Of a stretch of DNA of 64,000 nucleotides, positions 1,426 to 36,456 are shown piece after piece. Below the pieces are notes generated by a model. That model ran no database searches. It was given only the letters and a program-made list of their open reading frames with translations, and was not told where the DNA came from. The translations under genes were made by a program, and so were the position numbers. How positions within the stretch are numbered: the first letter of the stretch is position 1; the number at the start of each line of letters is the position of its first letter. Source of the stretch: Bacteroidales bacterium (GTDB lineage Bacteria; Bacteroidota; Bacteroidia; Bacteroidales; UBA932); NCBI GenBank assembly GCA_017465225.1, contig JAFTWQ010000003.1, positions 3,104 to 67,103 of the forward strand, given 5' to 3'.

Positions 1426-1980
1426 ATGAATGCAGGAATAGTAGCTTCAAGGTACGCAAAGGCTCTTCTGAAATTTGTGCAGGAGACCGGGAATGGGGAT
1501 AAGGTTTATGCCCAGGCCGGGGTTCTTGTGCTCCGTATGGAAGATATCGGTCAGCTGGAAGACTATATCTGCAATCATGGGGAAATCTGCCTTGAAAAGA
1601 AGATCCAACTGCTGGAAACTGCTCTTGGAGAGCCTCTTGCTATGGAGTTGAGCCGTTTTACTGCTCTTGTTGTCAGGCAGCGCAGGACAGGATTCTTCCT
1701 CCGGATGCTTCAAGCCTTTCTTGTGCTTTACCGTGAGGCCGCCGGCATGAAGCTCGGAACGCTTGTGACGGCTTTCCCTGCCGATGGACTCAAGGAAAAG
1801 ATGGAAGCGCTTTTCCGTCAGCGTACAGGAGCGGATGTGCAGCTTGAGATGAAGGTGGATCCGGAAATACTTGGCGGGTTCATATTCGAGCTGGACGACA
1901 TGCTTCTTGATGCAAGCGTCGCCTCCCGATTCCGTGAGATACGGCGCCAGCTTATAGAAAAGAATAACAGAATAGTATAA
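1426..1980 (+). CDS. atpH: ATP synthase subunit delta
   Basis: ASRYAKAL at the N-terminus; VDPEILGGF...LDASV at the C-terminus. Confidence 0.95.
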
Positions 1981-15410: not shown

Positions 15411-15443
15411 ATTATATTAACAATTAACAATAAATGCCGTTTA

Positions 15444-15524
15444 AAAGCACAAAATAGGCCTAATATGTGCTTTGGGAGTGAAAATTAAGTGTAAAAAGAA
15501 TGAAAACGATCGTTTTTGTGCTTT
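15444..15524. repeat. 51-bp-period palindromic mini-array, locus 1 (2 units)
   Basis: 30-bp units at 15444 and 15495 fitting AAAGCAC-AAAA-N8-TTTT-GTGCTTT with some mismatches. Confidence 0.75.
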
Positions 15525-22193: not shown

Positions 22194-24416
22194 ATGGAAA
22201 AGAAATTCAACAGAACGCTTGTGACCTGTGCGTTGCCATACGCAAACGGTCCTGTCCACATCGGCCATCTTGCCGGTGTATATGTGCCTGCAGACATCTA
22301 TGTGAGGTACCTCAGAATGAAGGGTGAGGATGTGCTTTATGTCTGCGGTTCTGATGAGCACGGTGTGCCTATCACCATCAAGGCCCAGAAGGAGGGATGC
22401 ACTCCGCAGGATATCGTCGACAGGTATCACAAGATCATAAAGGATTCATTCGCAGGTCTGGGAATCAACTTCGACATATATTCGAGAACGTCGTCAAAGA
22501 CCCATCATAAGAATGCGGCTGATTTCTTCAGGAAGCTCTATGATGAGGGCAAGTTCATCGAGAAGGTGAGCGAGCAGTATTATGATGAGGAGTCGAAGAC
22601 CTTCCTTGCAGACCGCTACATTACTGGTACATGCCCACGCTGCGGCGCAGAGGGTGCATATGGTGACCAGTGCGAAAAGTGTGGCGCTACCCTCAGCCCG
22701 GATGAACTGATCAACCCTAAGTCGGCTCTCAGTGGCGGCGAGCTCGTGAAGAAGGAGACAAAGCATTGGTATCTGCCTCTGGATCAGTATGAAAAGTGGC
22801 TTTCAGAGTGGATCCTCGACGGACATAAGGAGTGGAGAAGCAATGTATACGGACAGTGCAAGAGCTGGATTGACGGCGGTCTTCAGCCGCGTGCCGTAAG
22901 CCGTGACCTCAACTGGGGCGTTCCTGTGCCTGTTGAAGGCTCGGAGGGCAAGGTGCTCTATGTATGGTTCGATGCTCCTATCGGCTACATCTCGAATACA
23001 CAGGAGCTTCTTCCGCAGTCATGGGAGACATGGTGGAAGGGCGAGGATACCAAGCTCGTTCATTTCATCGGAAAGGACAATATCGTGTTCCACTGCATCG
23101 TCTTCCCTTCAATGCTGAAGGCTGACGGAAGCTATATCCTTCCGGACAATGTTCCTGCAAACGAATTCCTCAATCTTGAGGGTGACAAGATCTCGACTTC
23201 ACGCGGATGGGCTGTATGGCTCCATGAGTATCTCGAGCAGTTCCCGGGACAGGAGGATGTGCTTCGTTATGTGCTTACAGCGAATGCTCCTGAAACAAAG
23301 GACAACGACTTCTCATGGAAGGACTTCCAGGCACGCAACAACAGCGAGCTTGTGGCTATCCTCGGCAACTTCGTGAACCGCGCAGTGGTTCTTACCCATA
23401 AGTATTTTGACGGCAAGGTACCTGCAGACCTCAAGCCGGAGCCAGTAGATGCAGAGACTCTCGCGCAGATCCAGCCTCTCAAGGCGGAGATGGAGCGTTA
23501 TCTCGACGGCTACAAGTTCCGTGAGGCACTCAAGGAGGCTATGAACATCGCACGTCTCGGTAACAAGTACCTTACTGATACAGAGCCATGGAAGGTGGCG
23601 AAGACCGATATGGACAGGACTGCATCTATCCTGAATGTGTCTCTCCAGATCTGTGCATCGCTTGCGATCGCATTCGAGCCGTTCCTTCCGTTCTCTTCAG
23701 AGAAGCTCCGTGGTATCCTGAATGTAGGCGTTGCTGCCGGATTCGACCATCGTGCTGGCGAGGAACCTCTCTGTCATTCTGAACGAAGTGAAGAATCTCT
23801 CTACGAGAACCGTTTCACTCCAGGCGAAGGCTCTGCCCTCCATACATCTTCGGCTACTGCCGGCACTCCTGTCGTAGCTGCTCTTGAGGATGGCATCGTG
23901 CTTTCATGGAATGATCTCGGAAAGACTTCCATCCTTCCTGCAGGTCATCAGCTCAACCCTGCGACCCTTCTTTTCGCGAAGATCGAGGATGAGGTTGTCG
24001 ATGGTCAGATCGCGCGTCTTGAGACTATCCGTGCCGAGCGTGAGGCTGCTGCAAAGGCTGCCGAGGCTGCAGTCGTGACTCCGCAGAAGGAAGAGTGCAC
24101 ATTCGATGATTTCCAGAAGATGGACATCAGGACAGCGACAGTGCTCGAGGCGGAGCGTGTTCCGAAGACTGACAAGCTCCTGAAGCTTACCATCGATACA
24201 GGTATCGACAAGAGAGTGATCGTTTCGGGTATCGCCGAGCAGTATTCTCCGGAGGAGATGGTCGGCAAGCAGATCTGCATCCTCGCCAACCTTGCACCGC
24301 GCAAGATTCGTGGCATCGAGTCGAAGGGAATGATCCTCATGGCTCGTCAGAATGACGGCAAAATGCGTTTCGTTACGCCTGCGGAGACTCTTTGCAACGG
24401 TGCTGAAATAGGATAG
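22194..24416 (+). CDS. metG: Methionine--tRNA ligase with C-terminal tRNA-binding domain and an internal insertion
   Basis: [40 protein letters not shown]. Confidence 0.98.
23772..23798 (+). repeat. REP-like palindrome translated in frame within metG (CHSERSEES)
   Basis: tgtcattctgaacgaagtgaagaatct, matching the intergenic copy at 1391 at 24 of 27 positions. Confidence 0.85.
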
Positions 24417-24524
24417 CATTAAATAATGCATTATTTGACTTTCAACGACCTATATTCTTTTGGATCAGTACATTGATAAGGAGAGAGTTCTCCTGCGGCT
24501 AGACTTTTAGCAGTGGATAATATT

Positions 24525-25796
24525 ATGATAAAGACCGAATACTATAAGGATCTGACGAAGATGAACACCTTCGGAATGAAGGTGAAGGCACGCTGTTTCA
24601 TAGAGTATGATTCGGTGGCTGATCTTGTGGACATCGAGTTCGAGGAGCTGGCGCGTCCGGTGCTTCACATCGGCGGCGGCAGCAATCTCCTCTTCACCGA
24701 TGATTTCAAGGGTACGGTCCTGCATTCGAAGATCGATTTCATAGAGATACTGGACGAGTGCCATCGTATTCCGGAGGCCCCCGCCTTCGCAAGCTCAGGC
24801 ACCCCCTACCCGGGGGTGGGAAAATGCCTCCTTCATACAAATGGCACATCGTCAGCAGATTTCAGCCAATCAAGCAAGGTCCTGGTGTCGGTCGGTGCGG
24901 GAGTCGTCTTCGACGATTTCTGTGCATGGGCGGCGAAGGAGGGCCTCTGGGGCGTGGAGAATCTGTCATATATTCCGGGTGAGGTCGGTGCGTCGGCGGT
25001 GCAGAATATAGGGGCGTATGGTGTTGAGGTCAAGGATGTTATCCATAAGGTTTATTGCTACGATACGCTTGAGGAGGAGTTTGTTAGTTTCTCTGTTGAG
25101 GAGTGCGGATATGGTTATCGTGATTCGTTCTTCAAGAGGCCGGAGATCAAGGGCAGGTATGTCGTGACTCATGTGGTGTTTGCGTTGAGTCGGGAGCCGA
25201 AGCCGGTGCTGGAGTATGGGCACTTGAAGGAAGCGGTTGCATCAGCATATGGCGAGTGCCAATGTGTTCCAGAGGCCCCCGCCTTCGCAAGCTCAGGCAC
25301 CCCCTACCCGGGGGTGGGAAAATGCCTCTTCCACACAAATGGCACATCGCCTGAAAGTGATGATAAACCGTCAAAGCAGCATCTGACACCAGCAATGATC
25401 AGGAAAGTGATCATCAGGAGCAGGAAGGAGAAGCTGCCGGAGCCGTCGGTGAAGGGCAGTGCGGGCAGTTTCTTCAAGAATCCGGTGATCCCGATGGAGC
25501 ATTATCTGCGCATTGAGGAGGCGGCGAAGGCCGAGTTCGGCCCTGACTATAAGGTTCCGCATTACGATCTTCCGGATGGAATGGTCAAGGTCCCGGCAGC
25601 ATGGATGATCGAGCAGTGCGGATGGAAGGGAAAACGCAGCGGCGGAGCGGCTGTATGGGACAAGCAGCCGCTGGTGATCGTGAACCATACCGGTGAAGCG
25701 TATCCGGAGGAGATCGTCGGACTGGAAAAGCGCATCATCGCATCGGTCAAGGCTAAATTCGGAGTCGAACTGCACCCTGAAGTGGAGCACATATAG
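24525..25796 (+). CDS. murB: UDP-N-acetylenolpyruvoylglucosamine reductase carrying two in-frame repeat insertions
   Basis: NTFG, GGGSNLLF, IPGEVGASAVQNIGAYG, YGYRDSFFK, SAGSFFKNP, LVIVN, FGVELHPEV. Confidence 0.95.
   Translation: MIKTEYYKDLTKMNTFGMKVKARCFIEYDSVADLVDIEFEELARPVLHIGGGSNLLFTDDFKGTVLHSKIDFIEILDECHRIPEAPAFASSGTPYPGVGKCLLHTNGTSSADFSQSSKVLVSVGAGVVFDDFCAWAAKEGLWGVENLSYIPGEVGASAVQNIGAYGVEVKDVIHKVYCYDTLEEEFVSFSVEECGYGYRDSFFKRPEIKGRYVVTHVVFALSREPKPVLEYGHLKEAVASAYGECQCVPEAPAFASSGTPYPGVGKCLFHTNGTSPESDDKPSKQHLTPAMIRKVIIRSRKEKLPEPSVKGSAGSFFKNPVIPMEHYLRIEEAAKAEFGPDYKVPHYDLPDGMVKVPAAWMIEQCGWKGKRSGGAAVWDKQPLVIVNHTGEAYPEEIVGLEKRIIASVKAKFGVELHPEVEHI
24753..24853 (+). mobile_element. 101-bp branched palindromic element, copy 1, in frame in murB
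   Basis: 92 of 101 positions identical to 25251-25351; long outer stem plus two inner hairpins. Confidence 0.85.
25251..25351 (+). mobile_element. 101-bp branched palindromic element, copy 2, in frame in murB
   Basis: Same frame as copy 1 (offset 498 nt); encodes ECQCVPEAPAFASSGTPYPGVGKCLFHTNGTS. Confidence 0.85.
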
Positions 25797-25812
25797 TCTC
25801 CTGACCCAGTCG

Positions 25813-25926
25813 AAAGCACAAAATCGGGTGATTTCATGCTTTTGAACGTGAAAAACAAAGTCGAAAGCACAAAAACGGGCAGTTTCGTGTTTTTGAACGG
25901 GAGAGCTAGGACCGGAACACGAAAGG
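25813..25926. repeat. 51-bp-period palindromic mini-array, locus 2 (2 units plus truncated third)
   Basis: Units at 25813 and 25864; remnant ggaacacgaaagg at about 25914. Confidence 0.8.
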
Positions 25927-30767: not shown

Positions 30768-30886
30768 GTCAAAAGCACAAAATCGCCTGATTTTGTGCTT
30801 TTGACGTTAGAATTTTGCTTTGAAAGCATGAAATCGCCTGTTTTCGTGCTTTTAACCTTGGATTTGGACTTCGGAAGCACGAAAGG
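30768..30886. repeat. 51-bp-period palindromic mini-array, locus 3 (2 units plus truncated third)
   Basis: Units at 30772 and 30823, remnant at 30874; the first unit extends to perfect 17-bp arms (30768-30805). Confidence 0.85.
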
Positions 30887-30891
30887 TGGTG

Positions 30892-31563
30892 CTATTTCTT
30901 GCGGATGATGTTCAGGCCGTCGCGGAGGGGGAGGATGACGGATTCGACGCGGGGGTCGGATGAGACCATGTCGTTGAAGCGGGCGATGCCGAGGGTCTGT
31001 TTGTCCTGCGGGAGGGGATCCTGGCAGACCTTGCCGTCCCAGAGGACATTGTCGGCAAGGATGAGGCCGCCGGGACGGACCATGTCGAAGACGAGGTCAT
31101 AATACTCGCAGTATTCACGTTTGTTGGCGTCCATATACACGATGTCATAGAGCATGGCGGAATCGGCGGTAGAACCCTCTGTAAGGCCCATCTCGGTGCG
31201 GAAACGCTGGAGGGTCTCCTTGCAGTCTCCGATATGGAGCGCGATCTTGCCGGAGAGACCGGCACGGTCGAACCCTTCGAGGATAAGGTCCTCGAGTTCG
31301 TCGTTGAGTTCGAGTGTGTCGAGATGTCCGTCTTCAGGGAGGGCCGAGGCAAGGCTGATTGCGGAGTAGCCGGTGAATGTGCCCAGCTCCAGTATGCGCT
31401 TTGCCCCCGATGTCTGGACGATGATCCTTAAAAGCTCCCCTTGGATCGAGCCCGAAAGCATCCTCGCATGGTTGGTCCTGATATGGGTCTGCTTCGCCAC
31501 CCAGCTCATAGCCTCACTTTCACGAGTCGCGTGCTCCTCAATATATTTATATATATGTTCCAT
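30892..31563 (-). CDS. O-methyltransferase (Methyltransf_3 family)
   Basis: ILELGTFTGYSA, YMDANK, ADNVLWDGKV, LPLRDG. Confidence 0.93.
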   Translation of the reverse strand: MEHIYKYIEEHATRESEAMSWVAKQTHIRTNHARMLSGSIQGELLRIIVQTSGAKRILELGTFTGYSAISLASALPEDGHLDTLELNDELEDLILEGFDRAGLSGKIALHIGDCKETLQRFRTEMGLTEGSTADSAMLYDIVYMDANKREYCEYYDLVFDMVRPGGLILADNVLWDGKVCQDPLPQDKQTLGIARFNDMVSSDPRVESVILPLRDGLNIIRKK

Positions 31564-31621: not shown

Positions 31622-32881
31622 TTAGATATAAATAAGTTTCGATACTTTGTCCTTGTCAAAAATCTTGACAGCCATCTCGCGGACATCCTCGGCTGTGATG
31701 CCTTCCACGAGCGACCTGTTCTCCTTTCCTGAACTGACCTTGCCGTAAGCCAGGAGGCCTTTGCCCATCGAAAGACACTGGGTCTCGCCGTTGTCCCCGC
31801 TGATGGCCAGCTGACCGAGAAGCTGCTTCTTCGCCGCCTTCAGCTTACGCTCCGACAAAGGCTCGCTCTGAAGCTTGGCGATCTCCTTGTCAATGGCCTT
31901 GAGGCATTTGTCGAGATTTGCCTTGTCGCATCCTAATGTGATGGCTACCAGACCGGTGTCGGCAAACTGGGTGTATCCGCATTCAACTCCATAGACCCAT
32001 CCGTATTTCTCACGAAGGATGGAGTTGAGGATGGAATTCGTAGCCGGGCCTCCGAGAATGTTGCACAGCAGGACTGTAGCCAGCCTTTCGCGTTCCTGAT
32101 ACAGGGACGGGGCGAGGGCTCCGATCACGCAGTTGGCCTGATGGTTCCTCTTGCTGATGGTCTTGTCGAACTGCTCCGCCACAGGGGTGGAGTAGCTGCC
32201 GCATGGGAACGGCCTTTCCTCGCATCCATGTGCAGAAGGACAATCGGCCTGACTGCCTCCGAAATACTTCTCTGCCAGTTTCAGTACCCCTTTCTCCATG
32301 CGCTCTTCATCTATGTCGGCGACGACCGTGAAGGCCATCCTGCATGGCTGGAACTTCTCCTTGACAAACTTCAGCAGCTCCTTCCTTGTTATCTTCTTTA
32401 CGGAAACCGTCGTGCCCAGGATGTTACCGCTGAGGGGATGTCCCTTGAAGATCATCTCCTCGAACCTGTCGTATATATCCTCCGAAGGGGTGTCCTTGTA
32501 TGAATGGATCTCATCGATCACGACTCCTTTCTCGGTCTGGATCTCATGTTCCGGAAAGGTCGGACATGTCGCGAGTTCAAGAAGAAGAGAGGCAGCCTTG
32601 CTGAGGTCCTCCTTCAGTACGGTGGCATGGAAGACTATCTCCTCCTTCGTCGTGAATGCATTCAGCTCGCCTCCGAGCCTGTCAAGGTAACTGTTTATTA
32701 CCGAGGCACTTCTATGTTCGGTCCCTTTGAATATGGTATGTTCGACGAAATGGGCGATACCGGCATGATATCCGGCCTCGTCCCTCGTTCCGCATCTTAT
32801 GCTCAATGCGCAATATCCTACGGCAGAACCGCTTTTCTTGACTGCATACTGCAGTCCGCAGCTTGCTTTCCCACTTATCAT
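31622..32881 (-). CDS. M16 (pitrilysin-like) zinc peptidase
   Basis: GIAHFVEHTIFKGT (HxxEH), NAFTTKE, EKGVVIDEI. Confidence 0.93.
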   Translation of the reverse strand: MISGKASCGLQYAVKKSGSAVGYCALSIRCGTRDEAGYHAGIAHFVEHTIFKGTEHRSASVINSYLDRLGGELNAFTTKEEIVFHATVLKEDLSKAASLLLELATCPTFPEHEIQTEKGVVIDEIHSYKDTPSEDIYDRFEEMIFKGHPLSGNILGTTVSVKKITRKELLKFVKEKFQPCRMAFTVVADIDEERMEKGVLKLAEKYFGGSQADCPSAHGCEERPFPCGSYSTPVAEQFDKTISKRNHQANCVIGALAPSLYQERERLATVLLCNILGGPATNSILNSILREKYGWVYGVECGYTQFADTGLVAITLGCDKANLDKCLKAIDKEIAKLQSEPLSERKLKAAKKQLLGQLAISGDNGETQCLSMGKGLLAYGKVSSGKENRSLVEGITAEDVREMAVKIFDKDKVSKLIYI

Positions 32882-35594: not shown

Positions 35595-36407
35595 ATGAAA
35601 CTACGTTGCGAAAATCTTGTCAAGAAGTACGGACCTAGAACGGTCGTGAAGGGTGTGTCGATGGAAGTCGAGCAGGGAGAGATCGTGGGATTCCTCGGAC
35701 CTAACGGAGCCGGAAAGACGACGAGCTTCTATATGATCACCGGACTTATCGTGCCGAATGCCGGAAGGATATTCCTTGATGACGAGGAAATCACCGGCCT
35801 GCCTATGTTCAAGCGCGCCCAGAAGGGTGTCGGCTACCTCGCCCAGGAGGCTTCGGTATTCCGTCACATGACCGTAGAGGACAATATCATGTCGGTGATG
35901 GAAATGTCGAAGCAGTATACGAAGGCGGAAAGGAAACAGCGTCTGGAGGAGCTTCTCGATGAGTTCAATCTACATAAGGTGCGCAAGAGCAAGGGAATCC
36001 AGCTTTCGGGAGGTGAGCGCCGCCGTTGCGAGATTGCGCGTGCCCTCGCCATCGACCCGAAGTTCATCCTTCTCGATGAGCCTTTTGCCGGTGTCGACCC
36101 TATCGCCGTCGAGGATATCCAGTACATCATCGCAAAGCTGAAATACAAGAATATCGGAGTCATCATCACCGACCATAATGTTGGTGAAACCCTCGCGATC
36201 ATCGACCGTGCATACCTTCTTTATGAGGGATCCATCCTCCAGCAGGGTACTCCGGAAGACCTCGCGGCAGACGATGAGGTGCGTACCAAGTATCTCGGTT
36301 CGAACTTCGTCCTCAAGCGCTCGGCTGCCTTCCTCCGCGCAGAAAAGGGCGGTCCCCAGCGTATCAATACCAAGGAGGAACACGAAGCCGCTGCGGCTGA
36401 AGAGTAA
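35595..36407 (+). CDS. lptB: LPS export ABC transporter ATP-binding protein
   Basis: GPNGAGKTT, YLAQEASVF, LSGGERRR, DEPFAGVDP, ITDHNV. Confidence 0.95.
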   Translation: MKLRCENLVKKYGPRTVVKGVSMEVEQGEIVGFLGPNGAGKTTSFYMITGLIVPNAGRIFLDDEEITGLPMFKRAQKGVGYLAQEASVFRHMTVEDNIMSVMEMSKQYTKAERKQRLEELLDEFNLHKVRKSKGIQLSGGERRRCEIARALAIDPKFILLDEPFAGVDPIAVEDIQYIIAKLKYKNIGVIITDHNVGETLAIIDRAYLLYEGSILQQGTPEDLAADDEVRTKYLGSNFVLKRSAAFLRAEKGGPQRINTKEEHEAAAAEE

Positions 36408-36456
36408 AACAAAAAACCGGTCACATCGTCGATGTGACCGGTTTTTTGTTTTACTC
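36402..36456. terminator. Bidirectional intrinsic terminator, perfect 55-bp palindrome
   Basis: 27-bp perfect arms with A/T tracts between convergent lptB and efp. Confidence 0.9.

What the first reader, a model, noticed from the sequence alone, without database searches (positions are those of the whole stretch)
24753..25351. The same 101-bp branched hairpin is inserted twice, in frame, into essential murB, with compensatory covariation
Seen: copies at 24753-24853 and 25251-25351 differ at 9 of 101 positions and share an identical 57-nt core. Six of the nine differences form three base-pair swaps in the outer stem: positions 2/100 A-T to G-C, 16/84 A-T to G-C, and 21/79 G-C to A-T. Inside are two hairpins (gcct...aggc and accccc-taccc-gggggt). 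Both copies read in the same stop-free frame (EC..PEAPAFASSGTPYPGVGKCL.HTNGTS) and interrupt normal MurB sequence at two unrelated sites. The protein is about 423 aa, against roughly 330-340 aa usual from recollection, and the catalytic motifs are intact. Inference: the constraint is on nucleic-acid structure rather than peptide, so these are independent insertions from a mobile family. They may be translated as surface loops (RPE-like) or removed at RNA level.
Basis: partly seen in the sequence, partly recalled or inferred. Interest (0 to 1): 0.9.

Follow-up and report, generated by a model that had tools for sequence, protein, structure and literature searches.

The report
Knotted hairpin repeats inside essential MurB
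Two copies of a 101-base folded repeat sit in frame inside the cell-wall gene murB of a gut Bacteroidales bacterium; they belong to a family of 22 copies in this genome that my searches found no description of, and are likely translated as floppy protein loops rather than spliced out, much like the palindromic elements of Rickettsia.

Summary
In detail: 9 of 101 differences, a 57-nt identical core and three compensatory swaps. The copies belong to a repeat family of a Ca. Cryptobacteroides subclade. This genome has 22 copies: 7 in frame in genes, 14 just behind stop codons, and 20 of 22 in the transcribed orientation. Both murB sites are hypervariable loops. In 184 of 184 related loci they keep the frame and lack stops, with 45 different lengths each, several unrelated repeat families, nested inserts and deletions that destroy the fold. 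That argues for translation as disordered loops, not RNA-level removal. The identical core is likely a later hairpin swap, not two fresh insertions: 32 of 35 relatives with the same site-2 shell carry another core. New: a covarying 3-bp pseudoknot pairing (100 of 101 copies) and an extra conserved C5 run suggest a knotted, possibly triple-helical fold. The site-1 stem diverges about four times slower than synonymous sites. No mobilising enzyme was found beside the repeat (53 RAYT-like loci). Verdict: a new structured variant of RPE-like in-frame repeats.

The parts
24525..25796 (+). murB, 423 aa; the only MurB_C match in this 78%-complete genome
   Evidence: predicted fold matches P. aeruginosa MurB, TM 0.90 over the target
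24753..24853 (+). Copy 1 of the repeat (site 1, residues 77-110), in a loop predicted disordered (pLDDT <50 at 79-115)
25251..25351 (+). Copy 2 of the repeat (site 2, residues 243-276), in a loop predicted disordered (pLDDT <50 at 244-285)
24774..24830 (+). 57-nt core of copy 1, identical in copy 2
25272..25328 (+). 57-nt core of copy 2; its first inner hairpin is likely swapped in (relatives with this shell mostly carry the other hairpin type)
24778..24782 (+). First C5 run: nearly invariant, mostly without a Watson-Crick partner in the predicted fold; candidate third strand of a triple helix (inferred)
24802..24820 (+). Pseudoknot-like core: C5 (24802-24806) with G5 (24812-24816), and loop triplet 24809-24811 covarying with triplet 24818-24820; same in copy 2 at +498
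24854..24875 (+). Site-1 tail: partly a reverse complement of the host codons just upstream; nearly identical in distant backbones
24421..24436 (.). Perfect 16-bp palindrome in the metG-murB spacer: likely deletion scar of a third family copy that relatives still carry here

Best explanation
The two inserts are members of a roughly 100-base structured repeat family of one Ca. Cryptobacteroides subclade that likely spreads as a non-coding mobile element and is likely translated in MurB as two disordered surface loops, not spliced out. Shown: the family, its fold with covarying helices, its orientation with transcription, and frame-keeping at both murB loops. Inferred: an element with a conserved knotted core on a long, fast-changing paired stem lands behind stop codons or inside genes, and inside essential genes only in-frame, stop-free versions in tolerant loops survive. 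Inferred: those loops then keep changing through deletion between short direct repeats in the stem, nested insertion of other palindromes and exchange of inner hairpins between copies, which is the likely origin of the identical 57-nt core. Inferred with less support: the core folds on the antisense DNA strand (pseudoknot, perhaps a G.G-C triple helix) and is the recognition site of a mobilising single-strand enzyme, most likely a RAYT-like HUH transposase acting in trans; no such gene was found next to the repeat.
For: Family: 22 copies by iterated nhmmer and by a covariance model; core pattern in 33 of 301 genus genomes with 0 control hits; model hits in 0 of 150 other genomes across the order. 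Translation: both loops a multiple of 3 and the gene stop-free in 184 of 184 loci with all three anchors, 45 distinct lengths per loop; in-frame deletions that remove the core (L074, L114, L113); unrelated repeat families and nested 14- and 20-residue inserts in the same loops; several frames and both orientations used in murB, sufD-like, hemW-like, argC, folC and a THUMP-like gene; core folds confidently with the loops below pLDDT 50. Hairpin swap: of 35 proteins with the same site-2 shell, 32 carry the other core, 1 a deletion and 2 the core seen here; a related strain's contig follows site 2 to 25280 and continues with the other hairpin. Structure: triplet pairing kept in 100 of 101 distinct copies through three sequence variants (65, 28, 7); 98.4% of cells paired, above 500 of 500 shuffles and all slid controls; three C5/C5/G5 runs intact in 90 of 104 copies; antisense strand more stable in 59-60 of 65 clusters and a purine-rich internal loop on that strand. 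Nucleotide-level constraint: site-1 outer stem 16% divergent against 62% at four-fold sites, lower in 105 of 105 pairs of 15 alleles. Loss: two different deletion scars in the metG-murB spacer.
Against: No mobiliser: no significant match beside 53 Y1-transposase loci or 5 small GIY-YIG loci; DUF559 not found in 6 genomes. No fresh filled/empty pair was obtained, so ends and target duplication are undefined and present-day mobility is not shown. Translation is inferred; loci were the best tblastn matches, which favours intact genes, and several are duplicates or kin. Strand: isolated stem mismatches favour the antisense strand only 20 to 10 (p 0.10), some coding copies have G-T wobbles on the sense strand (L074), and 20 of 22 copies are oriented with the transcript, which would fit an RNA role just as well. 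The C5/G5 helix never covaries, and six copies carry an uncompensated G-to-T change in it. The triplet covariation needs only two or three evolutionary events. The unpaired part of the site-1 tail is also conserved across distant backbones, which structure alone does not explain.
Confidence: 0.65

Rival explanations
1. The fold is selected as RNA: the repeat is a mRNA element (3' stabiliser, terminator cap or ribosome/polymerase pause) kept for what it does to the transcript, including inside murB. It is still translated there.
For: 14 of 15 intergenic copies start within about -6 to +16 nt of a same-strand stop codon and 6 of 7 coding copies are sense (20 of 22, p 1e-4 if copies were independent). 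No link to the GC-skew proxy for replication strand (11 of 22). The stem evolves about four times slower than four-fold sites.
Against: Orthologous positions in relatives are usually empty or hold unrelated hairpins (purA and the TrmA/RlmD-like gene 3' ends; argC, hemW, folC loops). Core deletions in murB are tolerated. The antisense strand folds better in 60 of 65 clusters, and the pseudoknot linker lengths suit the antisense strand (own knowledge of H-type geometry).
Confidence: 0.25
2. Little or no selection on the fold: old insertions whose arms are re-matched by replication template switching, and whose low divergence reflects short-tract lateral exchange of whole loops among co-habiting species.
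For: Multi-base 'perfected' stems and a flipped core (L344, L074, L077, L131). 3' arms complementary to host codons or stop codons (L057, L226, L034). Site-1 insert 0 of 101 different from L079 and L112 while adjacent third positions differ 15-39%, and the tail is shared with distant L074. Patchy distribution on the murB tree. Template switching can create and maintain hairpins (bioRxiv 2021.04.15.439925, abstract).
Against: The 3x3 internal loop, the bulged A and the core survive in most copies although template switching should erase them. The crossing triplet pairing covaries across three variants. Synonymous differences lie right against the insert on the 5' side, leaving little room for a recombination tract.
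Confidence: 0.25
3. The inserts are removed or bypassed at RNA level (self-splicing, ribozyme or ribosome hop), giving a normal-length MurB.
For: Strong, conserved nucleic-acid fold inside an essential gene.
Against: Frame kept and no stop in 184 of 184 loci with 45 lengths per loop. In-frame core deletions and unrelated repeats in the same loops. A contig from an RNA library spans the whole site-1 insert without gaps in a related strain, and the listed skipping joints carry other strains' loop letters, have unknown content or match DNA alleles (contigs only, DNA may be present, 10 joints not shown). No Rfam match at the copies beyond chance.
Confidence: 0.04
4. Only a local duplication or an assembly artefact.
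For: The two copies are each other's best match in the genome and lie 498 nt apart.
Against: 20 further copies on 15 other contigs; core unitig at about twice flank depth in three runs; same site-2 peptide in other assemblies. Local copying between murB loops may still have contributed.
Confidence: 0.02

Closest known systems
Rickettsia palindromic elements (RPEs; seen as summarised in PMC10969869, PMC1779305 and PMC3733652, passages)
   Same: 100-150-bp palindromic repeats in both intergenic and coding regions, in frame in unrelated metabolic genes, lineage-specific, sometimes twice in one gene, no known mobiliser.
   Different: Different phylum; no RPE model matched in NCBIfam; several frames rather than one conserved peptide; branched pseudoknot-like core on a copy-specific stem; strong sense orientation; same loops refilled by several families.
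GTAG/CGTC-tagged REPs and REPINs with RAYT (Y1 HUH) transposases (PMC3733652, PMC6006769, passages)
   Same: Palindromic, mostly just downstream of coding regions, some in frame in genes. RAYT-like genes with their own flanking palindromes are common in this clade.
   Different: Longer and branched; no GTAG or CGTC tag seen in the alignment; not found beside any of 53 Y1 loci.
NTS/SRM repeats with SsnA single-strand nuclease (PMC11893778, passages)
   Same: Hairpin repeats recognised as single-stranded DNA and tied to recombination. A neighbouring repeat family in this genome flanks a 96-aa GIY-YIG gene and shares the MurB loops.
   Different: That is the other ([16 protein letters not shown]) family; the repeat studied here was not found beside 5 small GIY-YIG loci.
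BoxC / PIT / TM-ECO intrastrand triplex repeats (PMC4666352, passages)
   Same: On the antisense strand a C-rich run is followed by a loop and two mirror G-rich runs, the order of a class II purine triplex.
   Different: Only five uninterrupted potential triads, a whole hairpin as second loop, an added pseudoknot pairing and a long outer stem; triplex formation not tested.

Membership tests
Rickettsia palindromic elements (RPE) | Dispersed 100-150-bp palindromic repeat with intergenic and intragenic copies | tested here: met
   22 copies, 15 intergenic and 7 intragenic
Rickettsia palindromic elements (RPE) | In-frame insertion in unrelated housekeeping genes that stay intact | tested here: met
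   murB twice, sufD-like, hemW-like, argC, folC, THUMP-like gene; 184 of 184 murB loci in frame
Rickettsia palindromic elements (RPE) | Sequence homology to an RPE family | tested here: not met
   No RPE-domain model among the NCBIfam hits of the host proteins; no Rfam match beyond chance. That NCBIfam holds RPE models is recalled; RPE DNA was not compared directly.
Rickettsia palindromic elements (RPE) | Insert present in the expressed, functional protein | not testable with these tools
   Only indirect: frame conservation and predicted disordered loops
REP/REPIN with RAYT | GTAG or CGTC tetranucleotide at the foot of a 20-40-bp hairpin | tested here: not met
   No conserved tag in the 62-copy alignment; unit about 100 nt and branched
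REP/REPIN with RAYT | Copies flank a cognate Y1 transposase gene | tested here: not met
   No significant model match in 53 Y1 loci from 21 incomplete genomes; absence not shown
Classical MITE | Conserved terminal inverted repeats and a target-site duplication | tested here: inconclusive
   Outer arms are paired but differ between copies; no fresh filled/empty pair; short direct repeats at scars are explained by deletion
Ssn-related motif (NTS/SRM) | Copies flank a small GIY-YIG gene | tested here: not met
   No match in L312, L431-L433, L436
Intrastrand triplex repeats (BoxC/PIT) | Pyrimidine run, purine run and mirror purine run on one strand | tested here: inconclusive
   C5/C5/G5 intact in 90 of 104 copies, no covariation, six uncompensated changes
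Intrastrand triplex repeats (BoxC/PIT) | Triplex forms in vitro | not testable with these tools
   Needs CD, NMR or DMS probing
Self-splicing intron or small ribozyme | Match to a known family, and frame-independent removal | tested here: not met
   No Rfam match beyond chance; strict frame conservation

The most novel reading that the evidence does not exclude
A transcription-oriented mobile element whose core folds on single-stranded DNA into a pseudoknot with a G.G-C third strand, builds or extends its stem by copying neighbouring host DNA, and turns tolerant loops of essential enzymes into exchangeable cassettes that move between gut species in very short tracts.
Probability: 0.2. Interest if true: 0.78.

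Novelty: new variant of a known kind. Interest (0 to 1): 0.5.

Why it matters
In-frame palindromic inserts are known from Rickettsia, but how they arise and move is still open. This clade offers hundreds of alleles of the same MurB loops (empty, filled, nested, partly deleted, core-swapped), which makes their life cycle traceable. The covarying knotted core and the sense polarity give concrete, testable handles on the recognition structure and on whether DNA or RNA is the selected form. It also warns that compensatory changes in repeats need not mean RNA function.

Tried and rejected
Rfam: only chance-level hits (mir-3552 at 22-24 bits against a cut-off of 120; nothing at the other copies). 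HDV-like ribozyme topology on the antisense strand was considered and rejected by eye: no P1 partner and no catalytic C in the joining strand (own knowledge). Viral contigs: 2 pattern matches, only the 18-20-nt hairpin in unrelated phage spacers, not the element. Plasmids: no match. An inverted pair of copies in L203 flanks a nitroreductase-like ORF, not a mobile enzyme (name by eye). Y1, GIY-YIG and DUF559 searches gave no cognate enzyme. Link to replication strand by GC skew: 11 of 22, none. A first mismatch count (A-C 42, G-T 19) fell to 20 against 10, p 0.10, after grouping related copies. Test of whether stems are copied from host DNA: the stem reached the stop codon in 16 of 36 stop-proximal clusters, but long extensions in AT-rich flanks are unreliable and one row (C64) was a coding copy, and four intergenic copies share their arms: inconclusive. 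Orthologous empty sites at purA, the TrmA/RlmD-like gene, argC, hemW, folC and sufD were too diverged to define junctions; the sufD comparison parsed only 3 of 24 loci. RNA runs were contigs only and may hold DNA. Paper search returned nothing relevant. Earlier-finding look-ups by place and by sequence returned nothing.

Full report
OBSERVATION. The two stretches differ at 9 of 101 positions and share a 57-nt core, positions 22-78. The three stated swaps fall on predicted pairs 2/100, 16/84 and 21/79; three or more such pairs arose in 0.12% of random simulations. Both strands fold with z between -5.0 and -6.2. The ORF is a 423-aa MurB, the only MurB_C match in a genome that is 78% complete. 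R199, S315 and E419 are invariant in 68 aligned relatives; their equivalence to the E. coli catalytic Arg, Ser and Glu is recalled. In three DNA runs, which may be the source study, the core is a single unitig at about twice the depth of its flanks, as two real copies predict. The closest named relatives are Ca. Cryptobacteroides and Bacteroidales MAGs from animal guts.

THE FAMILY. Iterated nhmmer converged on 22 copies in the genome, and a covariance model found the same 22. An 18-base core pattern occurs in 33 of 301 genus genomes, own included, with no control hits. The model matched none of 150 other genomes drawn across the order. By heuristic ORF calls, 7 copies lie in frame in genes and 15 are intergenic. 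The host genes are murB twice, sufD-like, hemW-like, argC, folC and a THUMP-like gene. Fourteen intergenic copies begin within about -6 to +16 nt of a same-strand stop codon, and 6 of 7 coding copies are sense: 20 of 22 follow transcription (p 1e-4 if independent). A GC-skew proxy for replication strand showed no bias (11 of 22). Coding copies use different frames, so no common peptide is conserved.

ANATOMY. From outside in: a long outer stem that differs between copies but stays paired (median about 18-19 Watson-Crick pairs); a 3x3 internal loop, TCC/TCC in 27 of 65 clusters; a covarying 6-bp stem; a C5 run; a variable hairpin in two main types; and a C5/G5 hairpin. The loop of that last hairpin covaries with the triplet behind it: GCC/GGC 65, CCC/GGG 28, CGC/GCG 7, unpaired 1, of 101 distinct copies. 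On the 62-row alignment the named pairs are 98.4% paired and beat 500 of 500 shuffles and all slid controls, but rows are related and the C5/G5 helix never covaries. The two pairings cross, giving a pseudoknot or a switch; linker lengths suit the antisense strand (own knowledge of H-type geometry). The first C5 run is almost invariant though mostly unpaired. On the antisense strand the order C-run, G-run, mirror G-run is that of a class II purine triplex, which PMC4666352 (passages) says forms in DNA and not in RNA. All three runs are intact in 90 of 104 copies; six carry an uncompensated G-to-T change. I took the triplex idea from earlier finding e1-3943143; only the sequence pattern was tested. 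The antisense strand is more stable in 59-60 of 65 clusters, but the mismatch bias is weak (20 to 10, p 0.10).

THE MURB LOOPS. Of 190 loci (L002-L191), 184 had all three conserved anchors; 6 were left out for a missing anchor. In all 184 both loops are a multiple of three and the gene has no stop, with 45 distinct lengths per loop, -9 to 210 nt relative to the anchors. The set holds duplicates and kin and favours intact genes. The loops hold this family in two frames, unrelated palindrome families, nested inserts inside the C5/G5 loop, short empty versions and in-frame deletions that remove the core. A third loop also carries the element in L054 and P0014. AlphaFold2 folds the core confidently and leaves residues 79-115 and 244-285 below pLDDT 50; the model matches solved MurB (TM 0.90 over the target). 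In two metatranscriptome runs, a related strain's contig spans the entire site-1 insert without gaps. Listed joints that skip an insert carry other strains' loop letters, have unknown content, or equal a 39-nt deletion also seen in DNA alleles. These are contigs, DNA may be present, and 10 joints were not shown. Together this makes translation likely and RNA-level removal unlikely; neither is shown directly.

WHY THE TWO COPIES ARE SO ALIKE. Of 35 proteins with the same site-2 shell, 32 carry the other hairpin type, 1 a deletion and 2 the type seen here, while that type is found at site 1 in 69 of 120 proteins (the set was selected by likeness to the query). A related strain's contig follows site 2 up to 25280 and continues with the other hairpin. 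The two types differ by 3 nt, so a swap keeps the frame. The identical core is therefore likely a later conversion, and the three compensatory swaps are older differences between the site-1 and site-2 shells. The murB copies at all three sites form one cluster by outer stem, so copying within the gene may have seeded sites 2 and 3.

CONSTRAINT AND TURNOVER. Among 15 site-1 alleles the outer stem differs by 16% on average against 62% at four-fold sites, lower in 105 of 105 pairs, and amino-acid changes are accepted where pairing is kept. The insert is identical in L079 and L112 while neighbouring third positions differ by 15-39%. The partly unpaired tail is also shared with distant L074, and alleles are patchy on the murB tree. 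Selection on pairing and short-tract lateral exchange both fit; I could not separate them. Loss is visible: relatives carry a copy in the metG-murB spacer, and the window and L079 have two different deletion scars there. Perfected stems, a flipped core (L344) and 3' arms complementary to host codons point to template switching as a contributor (mechanism from bioRxiv 2021.04.15.439925, abstract). Four intergenic copies share their arms, so arms also travel with the element.

MOBILISER. RAYT-like Y1 genes occur in all 21 genomes searched, many framed by their own palindromes, and a 96-aa GIY-YIG gene is framed by the other repeat family. The model found no significant match in 53 Y1 loci or 5 small GIY-YIG loci, and DUF559 was not found in 6 genomes. 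A HUH enzyme acting in trans is my best guess by analogy (about 0.35).

COMPARISON AND NOVELTY. The behaviour is that of RPEs and intragenic REPs (PMC10969869, PMC3733652, PMC1779305, PMC6006769; passages; the original Ogata papers were not read). It is not a member of those families by sequence, tag or associated enzyme. Paper searches found no description of this family; the library lacks most subscription journals, and supplements were not consulted. Earlier scan notes describe similar pseudoknotted or in-frame repeats in other Bacteroidales genomes; they are unchecked leads and suggest the phenomenon is recurrent rather than unique. Verdict: real, a new structured variant of a known kind, interest 0.5.

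Noticed in passing
window 23767-23812 (metG): A different palindromic family (reads CHSERSEES) lies in frame in metG; 10 ORFs of 200 aa or more in the genome carry this peptide.
   Followed up: partly
L312 (G000:C38, ORF 1435-1725, minus strand): A 96-aa GIY-YIG gene framed on both sides by that other family, an SsnA-like arrangement and a candidate enzyme for it.
   Followed up: partly
L311, L416-L430: 300-350-aa Y1 (RAYT-like) genes, many framed by their own long palindromes; some of these palindromes recur by eye as intergenic hairpins elsewhere in the clade.
   Followed up: partly
window 24421-24436: Palindromic scar where relatives (L032, L038, L051, L064 and others) carry a copy of the family; the metG-murB spacer is itself a hot spot for several repeat families.
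   Followed up: yes
window 15443-15524, 25812-25893, 30771-30852: A third repeat family of paired AT-rich hairpins, one copy right behind murB.
   Followed up: no
window 36402-36456: A perfect 27-bp hairpin; the genome has 46 perfect hairpins with arms of 15 bp or more, and 3' hairpins behind purA differ completely between species.
   Followed up: partly
window 31622-32881 and 30892-31563: The M16 peptidase and the O-methyltransferase show apparent low-complexity loop insertions by eye; a weak model hit at 30884-30980 (10.5 bits, E 0.75) is not significant.
   Followed up: no
L344:2194-2297 (hemW-like gene): The core is inverted within its stem and the internal loop is erased, in the same loop where other genomes carry a sense copy.
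   Followed up: partly
L098, L102, L108, L142, L188, L189, L191 (murB loops): More distant rumen relatives carry similar-looking Pro/Gly inserts in the same loops that score only at chance level with the model: possibly a sister family.
   Followed up: no
G000 contigs C24, C29, C55, C56, first 110 bases: The same perfect 20-bp hairpin near four contig starts, possibly the end of a collapsed repeat or insertion sequence.
   Followed up: no
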